A stretch of DNA of 58,942 nt, counting the filler, from Dugesia japonica (taxonomy: Eukaryota): the NCBI GenBank assembly GCA_001938525.1. It is 5 parts of 5 records of this genome, joined end to end, with 100 filler letters (N's around TTAATTAATTAA, not from the genome) between each part and the next. Parts side by side here need not be neighbours in the genome. Positions count along the whole stretch, not along the records: positions 40,130 to 50,600 come from MQRL01607736.1; 4 more parts are not named here. One strand, given 5' to 3'. Below, piece by piece: positions 43,021-49,021 of the stretch; the first letter of the stretch is position 1, and each line of letters starts with the position of its first letter. A program made the position numbers and the translations under genes. Under the pieces are notes generated by a model. The model saw nothing but the letters and a program-made list of their open reading frames with translations, did no database searches and was not told where the DNA came from.

Positions 43021-46000
43021 ATGATGAACCATGTGATGGAGTTAATGGAGTCAGGTGAATTAGATGCATATACGAGTGAAGCATGGTTTCCTCTGGTACA
43101 AGAATATGAATCGGAAATTCGTAGTCATGCAAAACCCGAGGATTATAGTATTAATGCTTACGAGCCAGCCATAGATGAAGATTCAACTGAATTGAAATAT
43201 CAAGAGATACCTAGGAAAATTGTGTTAAAGGATACTACTGTGAGTGGATTAAACAAGTAGAAAATGAACTGGCATGGCCAAAGCCTATCGCAGAGTATGT
43301 TTTGTGTTCTCAAACTAAAGTTATAGAACAAGATGATACTAAAACACATATTTCGGAATATGGGGTCTGGCCAGGTAAAACAACAATAAAGTTAATAAAT
43401 TTAGTGGAAATGCATCGCATTAAACGACCATTGTGGTATTATTTTGATTTCAAAACGACCGAGCAAATAGTAAAATCATTTGAAAAGAAATATCCCAAAT
43501 ATATGGTGTTAGGACGTACGGAGTCAACAACTACAACCAAAGGAATAAGCAAATTGCAGCAAGGATTTCTGGCAGATGTGGTAAAACAGATCAGACAGCC
43601 AATGACTCGGCAAACAAGAAGAGCAGCAAAAGCAGAAGATACCAATAGTTGTCAAATCAGTATGATAACCAAAAGCGATCCAGCACGATTGAAAGCACCG
43701 ATTAGATAAAAAACAAGAGTGTATGATTATGTAGAAACAGTCATAAAGGATGCTAAATTATTGAAGGATGAATTAACCAGAAAGGCTTCCTGGAAATTAA
43801 TGAATCATTTAGTTGAATTAGCCGAACCAGGTCATATTGACACAATGACGGGTCATAAATGGAGACCAATAATTCTTGAGTATGAGAAAGAGTTGTTACT
43901 AAACACAACCGTGGAGGATTATAAAATCAAAGCAATGGAAGCATGGAGACCGGATGAAGATAGAACCGAATACATTACGATAGCAGTCCTTGTTACAAGA
44001 AGATAGCATACAAGAAGATAGCAGTTGCGACAAAATGGAACATCACACGAGCGTTAAAACTGAAAGGATGGACTGTAAAAGACTTACTCAATGCGTTGGA
44101 GGAGGTTGAATGGGCAAAACCCGTAGGCGAATATATTGTTTGTACACCAGTGTCAGTAGTTAGCATTAATGATGCAAATGCCCATATTTCCGAATATGGT
44201 CTGAAACCTGGAACTACTATGGTAATTACTTTGTTAGAGAGTCGGAGAATGCGTTTATATAATGAACTAATTTGGCCCCATTTCTACTTTAGAACAACGG
44301 AAAACATAATGATTTCGTTGAATAAATGCCAAATCAATAATCTCGCACCGTTGTCAGAAAAGAGGGCACCACTGGCAATCCAGTCGAGTGAATTACCAAG
44401 AGCTGAAATACCGAGCGTTGTAATTAAAACTACTACAGAAGTTAATGAATGAACACTTTTCGAGAACGCAGCCAAGACCAGCCAGAGTTTGTATGATGAG
44501 ATCATTTTCGAGTAAAATAAGAAATAGAGGTAAAAAGGATGGAAAACAATCAAGTAATGTGGGAGAAGGAAGTTTGAATAAGCCGAGTGAAACATCAGCT
44601 ACTGCCAACAAGGACAGCAAGTTTAATAAAGGAGATCAACATGTGATTGAGTTCCGATTGAGACCAGGAGAGATTCCTGAATTAACGTTGGAATTAGATG
44701 ACGGAAAACCGAAAAAATTTGAATTACAATCAATTAGTCAAATTTGAACAAAAATGAAAAATGTGTATGCAAACGAAATAGATAAAATGGAATATTTGAG
44801 AATCGTAACTGACGAAGAAATTGAACGAATAGCCGAAGTCGATAACGAAAGCGAATCGTGGAAAGGTTTGAAGCGAACTATCGCAAAAATGGCGCTAACC
44901 ATTTACGAGAATCACAGTCAAATGACAGAATTGAATATTCAAGAGATAATAAACAGATTGAACCAATTGTGTATGATTGGAGGAAAAGCGTTGTATACGC
45001 TCATACATACGTTAACAATCACTCATGCATAAAGCATATCAAAACAAGATGTGCAAGTAACAGTACATTTTCCGGATGAATCAAGTAAAGAGTTCGATAT
45101 TAAAACNNNNNNNNNNNNNNNNNNNNNNNNNNNNNNNNNNNNNNNNNNNNNNNNNNNNNNNNNNNNNNNNNNNNNNNNNNNNNNNNNNNNNNNNAAACGA
45201 GAGGATATTGTAGTTTATTGTGGAGGAGAGATCACAGAGGATCACGATGAGTATCCAGTAAAGAGATCTGGCATATGGCCAGGCCATATGATGTATGTTT
45301 ATATTTTTGCAAATGGAGAAAATGAGAGAAACCCGTATTTGTTTAAGTCAATTAGAGAGAATTTATGGAGAAAAACAATACGATATTATGTCGATAATAT
45401 CAATCCAAAGTTGCCATGGAGATTGCAACTACATAATGAGGATATTGAATTAGCAAATCGAGAAACGGTAGCAGTAATACAGCAGAGACCGAGATTACAT
45501 CGACAATACAAATCAAATCAAGAGTTGAGTCGATCACAAGAAATGGTAGCGGTAACGTCCGGTAAATCGAAAAAGTGTAGTGAAGATTCTGCCGATATGG
45601 TAGATCAATTTATATCCAAAATTCAAGAGAAAAGTATAAACAAAACCAGTGAGGAGCATATAGTGGATCAATTACTGCAGTGCGATTTGTCCATTGAGGA
45701 GTTGAGATCATTGACCTACGAAATATCCAGATGTAAAGAAGAATGCAAATAAAGACCAAAACAATTTAAACTGCTGATATCACGAAGGCAAAAATGCGAA
45801 CAAGAGAAAGTATTACCACTTAGATTTAGCTTTAGAATCGTAGAACCAGATGGTCATGAAACGAGAATCTCGAATTTGGCGTACGAGACAGTGGAACAGA
45901 TGAAATCCAAAATACCATTCGAGTCGCCATATGTACTACTATTGAATAATCGGGAATTATTGAATAACGATATCATCGGAACGTTGGATATCCGACAAAA

Positions 46001-46030
46001 GATAGAAAATAAAATATATATCAAACCTGA
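43021..46030 (+). pseudogene. Polyprotein segment with four ubiquitin-like domains (about 43190-43405, 43970-44235, 45051-45305, 45825-46030)
   Basis: Domain 4, FSFRIVEPDGHETRISNLAYETVEQMKSKI, aligns ungapped to ubiquitin residues 1-30 with G10, T22, E24, K27, K29 and I30 identical. The others end in HISEYGVWPG, HISEYGLKPG and PVKRSGIWPG. Confidence 0.72.
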
Positions 46031-49021
46031 AGGCAGTAAACTATTGATCAGACGAAAATTACAAGCCAAGGACATTAAAAATAAATTGCACTTGGGACTA
46101 GGATCAAGTCAGACATCGATATTTATACGTGGACGATAACGAAGTATATACGAACGAAAAATTGGTGATACCGAAGAGAAGTCAAGTATTTTGTATTGCG
46201 AATACCAGGGACAACTGTAAAGAGGATATTATTTTTGAACCGCACGAGGGGTTCTCGAAACGATATAAATTGCCGGCAGCAAGGGAAATAGTAAAAGTGT
46301 CCGACGAGGGCAAAGTACCAGTGAATGTATTGAATATGACAGAGGAAAATATTACTATTTATCCTAATTCAAAAATCAGAGTATTAACCCCACTGAAAGA
46401 CGAAGAGGCGGAAATGAATAATGTGGTAAATAATGATTATGACAAATTAAAAGGAGAAATGGCGAAGCGAATGGAAATCGAGTTACCGACAAACTCAGAA
46501 GAAGTAGATCGGACGTTTAAAGTGGAATCAACAATTCTATCAGCAGCAGAAAAAGCTGAATTATTACAACTATTGGAGGAATTCAGAGATATTTTTGCGT
46601 GGACAGACAATGAATTAGGTACGTGCGCGTTGACCAAGCACTCAATAGTACTAACAGACGAAACACCGATAAAGTTGCGAACTTACAAACAAGCCGCAGC
46701 AAACCCAAAGATCTGTGAGGAGAAAATTGACGAGATGCTAAAATGTAAAGTAATCGAGCCAGGTTATTCCCCGTGGCATTTCCAGTAGTATTGGTTAAAA
46801 AGAAAGACGGAACAATGAGATTCTGTTTCGATTACAGACAACTAAATGCGAAAACTAAAAAGGATACATATCCGCTACCAGACATCAATGATATGTTAAC
46901 GCTCTTATATAATGCAAAGAAATTTACGACATTAGATTTGCGGAGTGGATATTGGCAAATCGAAATAGAAGAAGCGGATAAAGAGAAAACTGCGTTCTCC
47001 ACAGGAAAAAATTTATATCAATTTGTTCGAATGCCGTTTGGACTGACAAACGCGCCAGCATCATTTCAGCGATGCATGAATTTTGTGACACATGGGATAC
47101 CCCAGTGTATGATATATATAGATGATTTGTTGATATTTGTTGAGGAACATCTAAAGGATTTGAGAAATGTATTTGTACCAATTAGAGAATGGAAACTACG
47201 AGTGAAACCTACGAAGTGCGAATGGGCGAAAAATCAAGTGACTTATTTGGGGCATCTGATATCAGACAAAGGNNNNNNNNNNNNNNNNNNNNNNNNNNNN
47301 NNNNNNNNNNNNNNNNNNNNNNNNNNNNNNNNNNNNNNNNNNNNNNNNNNNNNNNNNGTATGGCGAATTATTATCGAAAATTTATCAAAGGCTTTGCGAC
47401 AATCGTGAGGCCGATTCAATCATTAGTGAAACAATACGTAAAATTCATTTGGACAAATGAGCATCATAAAGCATTTGAAACAATTCGAGAAAAGTTAATG
47501 ACGGCACCGATACTGGTACAACCAGATTTTAGTAAACCATTTATACTGGCAACGGATGCAAGCGGTTATGCAATGGGTGCAGTATTGAGTCAATTAGATG
47601 AAGAAGGACGAGAAAGATTGATCGGATATTTTAGTAAAGCATTTCAAGGGTCCGAAAAGAATTATAGCACCACTGAACGGGAAATTTTGGCGATAGAAAG
47701 GTCTGTAAAACATTTTAATCAGTTAATACTTGGACATCCATTAGTAATTTACACTGATCATCAGCCAATAACAATGATCAGACAAAAGCCATTACAGGCA
47801 AATCGAATAGCCAGATGGGCAATGAAGTTACAAGAATATGCACCGCTGGTCAAATATAAGACTGGAAAAGCCAATTCAATTGCAGATTATATGTCAACAG
47901 CAAAATTTATAGACGAACCAGAAGAAGTAGTAGAAAGTAAAGCAACCAGAGGTGAATGGATAGACTTACAGCAATTAATGAATCGAGACATAATATCTTT
48001 ATGTATGATATTGGCAGAGAATAAAGATTTTACCGGATTGAAAAAGGATCAGGACGAAGACGAGGAAGTGAGAATAATCTTAGATTATATATCTCACTTT
48101 CACTTGAGTAAAGTGGAGTGTAACAAAGCGATGAAGGAACATTTAAAGAAACGAGGTGGCAGGTATATCGTGGTAAATGAATGGTTAATGATAAAGGAAG
48201 GTGATCAATTGTTATTAGTAATACCAAAATGTAGACGAGCAAAAATACTTGAGCAGTACCATAATGGGATTCTAGACGGTCATATGTCCGCAAAGAAAAC
48301 TGAATCAAAATTACGAGCAAAATATTATTGGCCTCATATTACGACATGTGTGAAAGAATGGATTAGCAAATGCGAGATTTGCGCTGCCAGAAAAGGAACT
48401 GGAAAGAAATTTAAAGTTCCGTTACAATGCAGCATAGAACAAAACAAAAACAAAAACAGAATTCAAGCAAGCGCCGAAGTCAAGTAGAGATGTGGAGAGA
48501 AGAACGAAGCAAACAATTGAAAAAAGGGGATGGAATCACGGAATCAGAGACGAAAACTAAATTGCTAAAAGAAGCAGAAACGTTGAACCTTTGTGAGATT
48601 CTTGAGGGCGACACAAAAGATAATGACAAAGTTGAGGACGAGATAGTATTAATTGGAATGATGGCCCTCAAGGGCAATGTCCTGTTTGAGATGCCGTTCA
48701 CACCTGAGTTAATGCAGGAGCTTAGAGCATTTCAAGAAAAACAAGAGGAAAGAAAGGTTGGAACAAGACAATATGAGTGTGGAATGAGAAAAAATCAACA
48801 AATAATAGAACAAGAAATTAACTTAGTGATGGAACAAGCAACAATTAAAGAACCGAGTCGAGGAACTCCATTACCAAAACCACCCACGAATGGAAACAAC
48901 ACGTCGGAAGAAAATTATGTATACGCAATGACAAAATCAGAATCACAGGATCATATTTACGAAAACGAATCGGGAAATCTAAAAGAGGAAACAAAGCCAT
49001 CCGTTCTGAGAAATTGCCGGA

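What the first reader, a model, noticed from the sequence alone, without database searches (positions are those of the whole stretch)
45825..46390. Last UBL sits directly before a decayed aspartic-protease motif (Ddi1-like order), or the protease is missing
Seen: no intact D(T/S)G motif is visible between Gag and RT. Immediately after UBL4 the frame reads KLLIRRKLQAKDIKNKLHLGLGSSQTSI. The DNA TTG GGA CTA GGA TCA differs from TTG GAC TCA GGA TCA (L-D-S-G-S) by one inserted and one deleted base. The sequence then jumps to the usual post-protease spacer (IPKRSQ...ARE.V...VPVNVLN). Established: cellular Ddi1/DDI2 combine an N-terminal UBL with a retroviral-type protease. Inference: the ancestral element encoded UBL-protease in tandem, a possible convergent or evolutionary link to Ddi1, and this copy has lost most of the protease.
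Basis: partly seen in the sequence, partly recalled or inferred. Interest (0 to 1): 0.7.

Follow-up and report, generated by a model that had tools for sequence, protein, structure and literature searches.

The report
Broken retrotransposon copy missing its protease
This is a decayed copy of a common jumping-gene family that has lost most of its protein-cutting enzyme, and the supposed remnant of that enzyme's active site next to a ubiquitin-like domain is probably a chance look-alike, so no link to the cellular protease Ddi1 is shown.

Summary
The region lies in a decayed Ty3/Gypsy LTR retrotransposon (Gag, CCHC knuckles, four UBL-like units, spacer, RT, RNase H, integrase zinc finger). The protease really is missing: Pfam and a custom profile find none, yet find it in other Gypsy copies of the same window. 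LGLGS is probably not the catalytic relic. It lies 24 codons before the spacer, against 63-323 in all 29 measurable relatives and 110-112 in the two nearest. Its flanks score below all 41 true proteases, and such look-alikes arise in 28-94% of control sequences. A protease C-terminal tail fits better, in the spacer's frame at 46057. Sibling contigs from three DNA runs lose collinearity at about 46035-46055. Best reading: one deletion there removed the catalytic lobe, and the same copy also lacks its integrase core. UBL4 therefore abuts a deletion scar, and what followed it in intact elements is unknown. UBL domains between Gag and protease are already reported for planarian Burro elements. A Ddi1 link is unsupported.

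The parts
41923..42117 (+). Gag capsid remnant (Retrotrans_gag), with stops
   Evidence: Pfam PF03732 E 1e-4 in read-through frame
42426..42590 (+). Three CCHC-type zinc knuckles, first one decayed
   Evidence: PF00098 E 1e-9, 2 stretches; first knuckle seen by eye
43215..43412 (+). UBL-like unit 1 (N-terminal strands lie in another frame); part of a module duplicated with unit 2
   Evidence: 36% identity to unit 2 over 91 aa, E 3e-16; the upstream module part is also duplicated, 42% over 69 aa
44009..44245 (+). UBL-like unit 2
   Evidence: Pattern by eye; four-unit profile's best PDB hit is a ubiquitin variant, E 0.15; no Pfam or Atlas hit alone
45045..45314 (+). UBL-like unit 3 (contains N run 45107-45194)
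   Evidence: Alignment A1; siblings cover it from 45200 on; no Pfam hit
45813..46037 (+). UBL-like unit 4; no di-glycine end
   Evidence: ESM Atlas ubiquitin/Rad60-SLD clusters 0.87-0.89; covered by sibling contigs; does not match the protease profile
46035..46055 (+). Inferred deletion junction; the protease catalytic lobe and an unknown amount of other sequence are missing here
   Evidence: Sibling depth 37.8k at 46002, 1.6k at 46042, 8.6k at 46063, 25.5k at 46091 in X1, same pattern in X4 and X6; two X6 contigs stop matching at 46031 and 46033 with 249 and 81 bases unlaid
46057..46128 (+). Probable protease C-terminal tail and linker, in the frame of the spacer, with a stop at 46099-46101; LGLGS (46092-46106) is the overlapping frame
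   Evidence: Protease+spacer profile matches only from position 104 of 200 (catalytic Asp = 19, GxDF = 90); tail score 5.6 bits, rank 86 of 53,837, median of true tails 6.6
46129..46389 (+). Conserved spacer between protease and RT (where Burro and rotifer elements have a dUTPase-like domain; dUTPase homology not shown here)
   Evidence: Aligns to P0006/P0008; no dUTPase hit in Pfam or PDB
46794..47255 (+). Reverse transcriptase, frameshifted near 46780
   Evidence: PF00078 E 8e-33; frame change
47525..47839 (+). RNase H
   Evidence: PF17917 E 5e-37
48221..48394 (+). Integrase H2C2 zinc finger; the integrase core that should follow is missing (second internal loss near 48430-48460)
   Evidence: PF17921 E 6e-17; none of 120 polyproteins aligns beyond 48463; no rve hit in 48400-50582

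Best explanation
This is a dead copy of a very abundant Gypsy family whose long Gag-Pol region carries four integral, non-conjugatable UBL-like domains. One internal deletion with its junction at about 46035-46055 removed the catalytic lobe of the retropepsin (at least about 85 codons, possibly kilobases). It left UBL4 next to the last strand of the protease and the linker to the spacer. That remnant reads in the spacer/RT frame; LGLGS is the UBL4 frame running on past the junction and only resembles an active site by chance. Shown: no protease domain, wrong spacing, loss of sibling collinearity near 46042. Inferred: that the break is one large deletion, that 46057-46100 is the tail, and that intact members cut their polyprotein with an ordinary Gypsy retropepsin. 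The UBLs most likely act as captured interaction modules toward the host ubiquitin/SUMO system, as proposed for Burro's accessory domains (inference, untested).
For: Spacing: catalytic Asp to spacer anchor is 100-145 aa in 24 of 29 relatives with an upstream motif (the other five: 63, 71, 155, 280, 323) and 110 and 112 in the two nearest; LGLGS gives 24. GxD-to-anchor is 25-64 aa, median 45 (n=21), and UBL4 ends 44 codons before the anchor; tail-to-anchor is 13-53, median 32 (n=18), against 37 here. The profile matches this element only from position 104 of 200 but matches three other Gypsy proteases of the window from positions 3-8. With the two catalytic columns masked, the LGLGS flanks score -3.7 bits, below all 41 true proteases (minimum -0.7); a neighbour copy with a mutated motif scores 16.0. 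Siblings: trough at 46042 in all three DNA runs (4-8% of the depth at 46002); 38, 22 and 15 contigs cover 46091; no indel row at 46092-46106; two contigs leave the window right at the end of UBL4. The same copy also lacks its integrase core. The two nearest RTs (60% identity; 95/85 support) have a full protease just before the spacer.
Against: The size of the missing piece was never seen: no laid piece spans it and its letters were not shown. A similar trough occurs at 45556 (4.3k in X1) inside an open frame, and a known small deletion at 47138 gives near-zero depth too, so depth does not measure deletion size. No loose-end row was listed at 46030-46060 (23 shown, 485 hidden), and 264 of 304 difference rows were hidden, so substitutions at 46096-46099 in siblings cannot be excluded. 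One X1 contig joins 45994 to 46057, and 7-10 contigs per run cover 46042, so some copies may share the short form. The tail match is modest (rank 86 of 53,837, about 3-10% chance within the expected window, my estimate), was found after trying two frames, and must pass a stop at 46099. The LGLGS flanks still rank 29 of 24,192. The nearest sequenced relatives are only about 60% identical in RT and are not siblings.
Confidence: 0.7

Rival explanations
1. One reading: LGLGS is the frameshift-scarred catalytic motif, the protease began right after UBL4, and the deletion lies downstream, between about 46106 and 46130.
For: The UBL4 frame stays open through the motif. The flanks rank 29 of 24,192 under the masked catalytic matrix. 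It is the only one-in/one-out look-alike between Gag and the spacer. A frame change does lie somewhere between UBL4 and the spacer.
Against: It needs two compensating indels, a separate large deletion and a further event to explain the trough at 46042. The score is below all 41 true proteases, and a chance site at 44937 scores higher (7.1 bits). The residue two before the putative Asp is polar where relatives are hydrophobic. Look-alikes occur in 28-94% of controls. Mean sibling depth over 46110-46179 is 32k, twice that over 46040-46109.
Confidence: 0.15
2. The whole family (or a large subfamily) has no protease and is processed and moved in trans; the trough at 46042 is only a small private indel.
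For: No full-length sibling was seen. One contig joins 45994 to 46057, and a few percent of depth crosses 46042. Troughs of similar depth occur without a frame change (45556).
Against: Most sibling depth does not cross 46042, and two contigs run on for 81 and 249 bases unlike the window from the end of UBL4. A tail-like remnant survives. The nearest RT relatives have a protease. The UBL units have no di-glycine ends that host isopeptidases would cut.
Confidence: 0.08
3. The junction is an assembly misjoin between two copies of a high-copy repeat, not a biological deletion.
For: The window has 25 N runs, the family is very abundant, and no laid piece spans the stretch.
Against: 7-10 contigs in each of three independent runs cover 46042. 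Both sides differ from the bulk of siblings to a similar degree, and the copy shows many other real-looking lesions.
Confidence: 0.07

Closest known systems
Burro / GYPSM1 giant Gypsy elements of planarians (review PMC6431247, section 7 read in full)
   Same: Gag with three CCHC knuckles, a very long Gag-Pol region holding a Ubi2/SUMO-like domain, an extra domain between protease and RT, very high abundance, decayed copies common.
   Different: Four UBL-like units here against one listed for Burro. No MATH, BCL2, BIR, ankyrin or Env domain was found in this copy. It spans about 10 kb, not 20-30 kb. In Burro1 the UBL is separated from the protease by BCL2-like and Env regions. No Burro sequence was available to compare, and the host of the window is not identified by any search.
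Unnamed Gypsy polyproteins P0006 and P0008 (ENA)
   Same: Nearest RT (60-61% identity, 95/85 clade); the same spacer between protease and RT; a hydrophobic extension after integrase.
   Different: Both keep a full protease (PF13975 38 and 50 bits, above the cut-off). No UBL-profile hit in them or in 118 other polyproteins and 24 loci (best iE 0.11). P0008 has two protease domains in tandem.
Ddi1 / DDI2 (UBL-HDD-retropepsin-UBA or UIM; PMC4962041, passages)
   Same: A UBL lies N-terminal to the place of a retropepsin in one reading unit.
   Different: Ddi1 has one N-terminal UBL, a helical domain of about 100 residues before the protease and a C-terminal ubiquitin-binding part, and it arose early in eukaryotes. 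Here there are four internal UBL-like units in a retroelement polyprotein and no protease left to compare. Any Ddi-Gypsy relationship is described as ancient (PMC2642776, passages).
Rotifer Juno/Vesta/TelKA LTR retrotransposons (PMC5408684, passages)
   Same: An extra domain between protease and RT.
   Different: Theirs is a recognised dUTPase; the spacer here gave no dUTPase hit. The word ubiquitin does not occur in that paper's main text.

Membership tests
Ty3/Gypsy LTR retrotransposon | RT, RNase H, integrase in that order after Gag | tested here: met
   PF03732, PF00098, PF00078, PF17917, PF17921 in order; the integrase core is missing in this copy
Ty3/Gypsy LTR retrotransposon | Retropepsin between Gag and RT | tested here: not met
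   No protease family in three frames; only a tail-like remnant. Read as loss in this copy
Ty3/Gypsy LTR retrotransposon | Paired LTRs | tested here: inconclusive
   No match between 40130-42100 and 48400-50600 (best E 0.54); the element is bounded by N runs at 40030-40129 and 50601-50700
Burro | Three CCHC knuckles in Gag | tested here: met
   Two by Pfam, one decayed by eye
Burro | Ubi2/SUMO-like domain between Gag and protease | tested here: inconclusive
   Lead-level support only; no Pfam hit
Burro | MATH, BCL2-like, BIR, ankyrin and in-frame Env domains | tested here: not met
   None in six read-through frames; they could lie in the deleted part
Burro | dUTPase-like domain between protease and RT | tested here: inconclusive
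   Spacer is in that place; no dUTPase hit with HMMER; the paper used HHpred, which was not available against Pfam
Burro | Giant size and sequence identity to Burro1-4/GYPSM1 | not testable with these tools
   No genome held, no Burro sequence in reach, original paper not held
Ddi1/DDI2 | Intact retropepsin of the Ddi1 type (PF09668) | tested here: not met
   No protease; the nearest relatives score higher on PF13975 than on PF09668 (37.9 vs 24.3 and 49.5 vs 30.9 bits)
Ddi1/DDI2 | Single N-terminal UBL, helical HDD domain before the protease, C-terminal UBA/UIM | tested here: not met
   Four internal units; 44 codons from UBL4 to the spacer leave no room for HDD in this copy; no UBA hit

The most novel reading that the evidence does not exclude
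If the deletion removed little more than the catalytic lobe, intact members of this abundant family fuse the last of four UBL domains directly to their retropepsin. That would be an independently assembled UBL-retropepsin unit, Ddi1-like in order by convergence, in which the UBL could time or target polyprotein cleavage through host ubiquitin machinery.
Probability: 0.25. Interest if true: 0.55.

Novelty: new variant of a known kind. Interest (0 to 1): 0.2.

Why it matters
The protease loss is ordinary decay and says nothing about Ddi1. What remains of interest is the array of four UBL-like units in a Gypsy polyprotein: the one review read lists a single Ubi2/SUMO-like domain in Burro. If intact copies put a UBL directly on the protease, they would be a natural model of how a UBL-retropepsin fusion such as Ddi1 can be assembled. 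One alignment to a full-length natural copy would settle that.

Tried and rejected
Sibling proteins: none found. The UBL4 ORF and the spacer ORF gave 0 hits among longer proteins, and UBL3-UBL4 gave 0 of 1.84 billion representatives. Loci: none in viral contigs, phages or prokaryote genomes; 24 metagenome loci were only 35-59% identical in RT. AlphaFold models were too poor to search (pLDDT 32, 40), so no fold search was run. UBL4 as a degenerate protease: rejected, no profile match. The literal DSG at 45887 and the higher-scoring site at 44937: rejected as chance. A tail reading in the UBL4 frame (RKLQAKDIKNKLHLG) scored 2.9 bits, rank 180 of 33,481, but -7.2 and -0.7 bits in the re-anchored test, so the spacer frame was preferred. 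A protease tree with Ddi1 was not possible, as no protease is left. RNA: no listed holder is on record as RNA; one raw RNA run gave 82 reads of 13.6 million read, on both strands, 79 of them under 95% alike, which is not taken as expression of this copy. Earlier scan notes: none. Paper searches for a UBL in a retrotransposon polyprotein found nothing relevant (listings only), but they also missed the Burro review's 'Ubi2/SUMO-like' wording, so absence from print is weakly tested. The original Burro paper and the review's supplements could not be read and may already map such an element.
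Full report
Setting. The finding lies in a + strand element of about 10 kb between two N runs (40130-50600) in an AT-rich, repeat-laden window. Pfam gives a Gag remnant, zinc knuckles, RT, RNase H and the integrase zinc finger in Ty3/Gypsy order. The copy is full of stops and frame changes. It has also lost its integrase core: none of 120 related polyproteins aligns beyond 48463 and no rve hit follows. No LTR pair was found. No genome is held for the window.

The observation. 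The protease is missing. No protease family hits any of the three + frames of 40132-46172, while the same scan finds proteases in two other Gypsy copies of the window, one with a mutated catalytic motif. A profile of protease plus spacer, built from 24 relatives, finds three other proteases in the window from its first positions, but meets this element only from position 104 of 200; the catalytic Asp is position 19 and GxDF is 90. The four UBL calls rest on moderate evidence. Units 1 and 2 are a clear duplication (E 3e-16). UBL4 draws ubiquitin and Rad60-SLD clusters at 0.87-0.89, unit 2 draws none, the joint profile's best PDB hit is a ubiquitin variant at E 0.15, Pfam is silent and AlphaFold failed. 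None of the units ends in di-glycine.

Is LGLGS the active-site relic? Three tests say probably not. (1) Spacing. Of 120 polyproteins, 37 could be anchored on the spacer; 8 had no upstream motif, and the other 29 have 63-323 residues from catalytic Asp to anchor, 24 of them 100-145. The two nearest by RT (60-61% identity, 95/85 support) have 110 and 112. LGLGS has 24. (2) Flanks. With the two catalytic columns masked, the site scores -3.7 bits: rank 29 of 24,192, but below all 41 true proteases in leave-one-out (minimum -0.7, median 23) and below a chance site at 44937 in the same element. (3) Chance.

What the remnant looks like instead. In relatives the GxD helix lies 25-64 residues (median 45, n=21) and the last strand 13-53 residues (median 32, n=18) before the anchor. 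UBL4 ends 44 codons before it, and the peptide at 46057 in the spacer's frame lies 37 before it. That peptide scores 5.6 bits on a matrix of 35 tails, rank 86 of 53,837, near the true median of 6.6. This is modest support: it was picked after two frames were tried, and the frame carries a stop at 46099.

Siblings. No sibling protein or locus exists in the searchable collections, but public runs hold the family. Laying three DNA runs on 45200-47270 at 80% likeness placed 4904, 2210 and 2114 contig pieces and covered all 30 bins. So UBL3, UBL4, the spacer and RT belong to one abundant family; summed depth is not a copy number. The stop at 45750 is not shared by most laid contigs. Depth in X1 runs 37.8k at 46002, 1.6k at 46042, 8.6k at 46063, 25.5k at 46091 and 30.9k at 46175, with the same shape in X4 and X6. 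Two X6 contigs stop matching at 46031 and 46033 and run on for 249 and 81 unlaid bases. No indel row lies at the motif. Against a firm reading: a similar trough lies at 45556 inside an open frame, a small deletion at 47138 also empties depth, no loose-end row is listed at 46030-46060, 264 difference rows and 485 loose ends were hidden, and one contig joins 45994 to 46057. The data place a break just after UBL4 but do not give its size. Only 4 of the 24 listed runs were laid.

How it most likely works. One deletion near 46035-46055 took out the catalytic lobe (at least about 85 codons) and brought UBL4 against the protease tail; the UBL4 frame runs on for about 30 codons past the scar and happens to spell LGLGS. 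Confidence 0.7. Intact members most likely process their polyprotein with an ordinary retropepsin, like the nearest relatives. The UBL units are most likely captured interaction modules (inference).

Comparison with what is known. Planarian Burro elements carry three knuckles, a Ubi2/SUMO-like domain between Gag and protease and a dUTPase-like domain between protease and RT; in Burro1 a BCL2-like region and Env separate the UBL from the protease (PMC6431247, section 7 read). This copy works like such an element, but membership is not shown: the other accessory domains are absent, dUTPase homology was not detected, no Burro sequence could be compared, and no call identifies the host. If it is Burro-like, the deletion may be kilobases long and the adjacency is only a scar. 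Ddi1/DDI2 have a helical domain between UBL and protease (PMC4962041, passages), and any kinship with Gypsy proteases is described as ancient (PMC2642776, passages). The motif and helix definitions come from PMC7072860 (passages). PMC8532177 and PMC11410931 (passages) add no domain maps. PMC5408684 (passages) documents dUTPase between protease and RT in rotifers. Searches for UBLs in retrotransposon polyproteins gave nothing relevant (listings only), but they are weak, and the original Burro paper and the review's supplements were out of reach.

Verdict. Protease loss: real and ordinary. Catalytic relic and Ddi1 link: not supported. UBL directly on the protease in intact copies: open, about 0.25. 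Four UBL-like units: a variant of a known theme. Interest 0.2.

Noticed in passing
window 42988-43487 and 43764-44326: UBL units 1 and 2 are part of a larger tandem duplication that includes a 70-residue unit upstream of each UBL (42% and 36% identity).
   Followed up: partly
window 48430-48460: The integrase core is missing; the sequence jumps from the zinc finger to unrelated open frames.
   Followed up: partly
window 49010-49642: ORF with strongly hydrophobic stretches (49010-49085, 49280-49370) after integrase, no Pfam family; the two nearest relatives also have a hydrophobic extension after integrase. Possibly an Env-like or accessory membrane protein.
   Followed up: partly
window 41519-41867: Degenerate tandem repeat with a period of about 95 bases just upstream of Gag (69% identity).
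   Followed up: no
window 43996-44025: Exact 15-base tandem duplication at the start of UBL unit 2, near a frame change.
   Followed up: no
window 12904-15750, 35613-38900, 52800-55850, 23150-25340 (-), 8850-10310 (-): Several copies of other, shorter Gypsy families; three keep a recognisable protease and served as positive controls.
   Followed up: partly
protein P0008, residues 159-246 and 342-431: A near RT relative with two retropepsin domains in tandem, both with a D-[TS]-G motif.
   Followed up: no
L010:1578-2987: Ankyrin-repeat ORF about 2.3 kb upstream of the Gag of a Gypsy element in a metagenome contig; whether it is part of the element was not tested.
   Followed up: no
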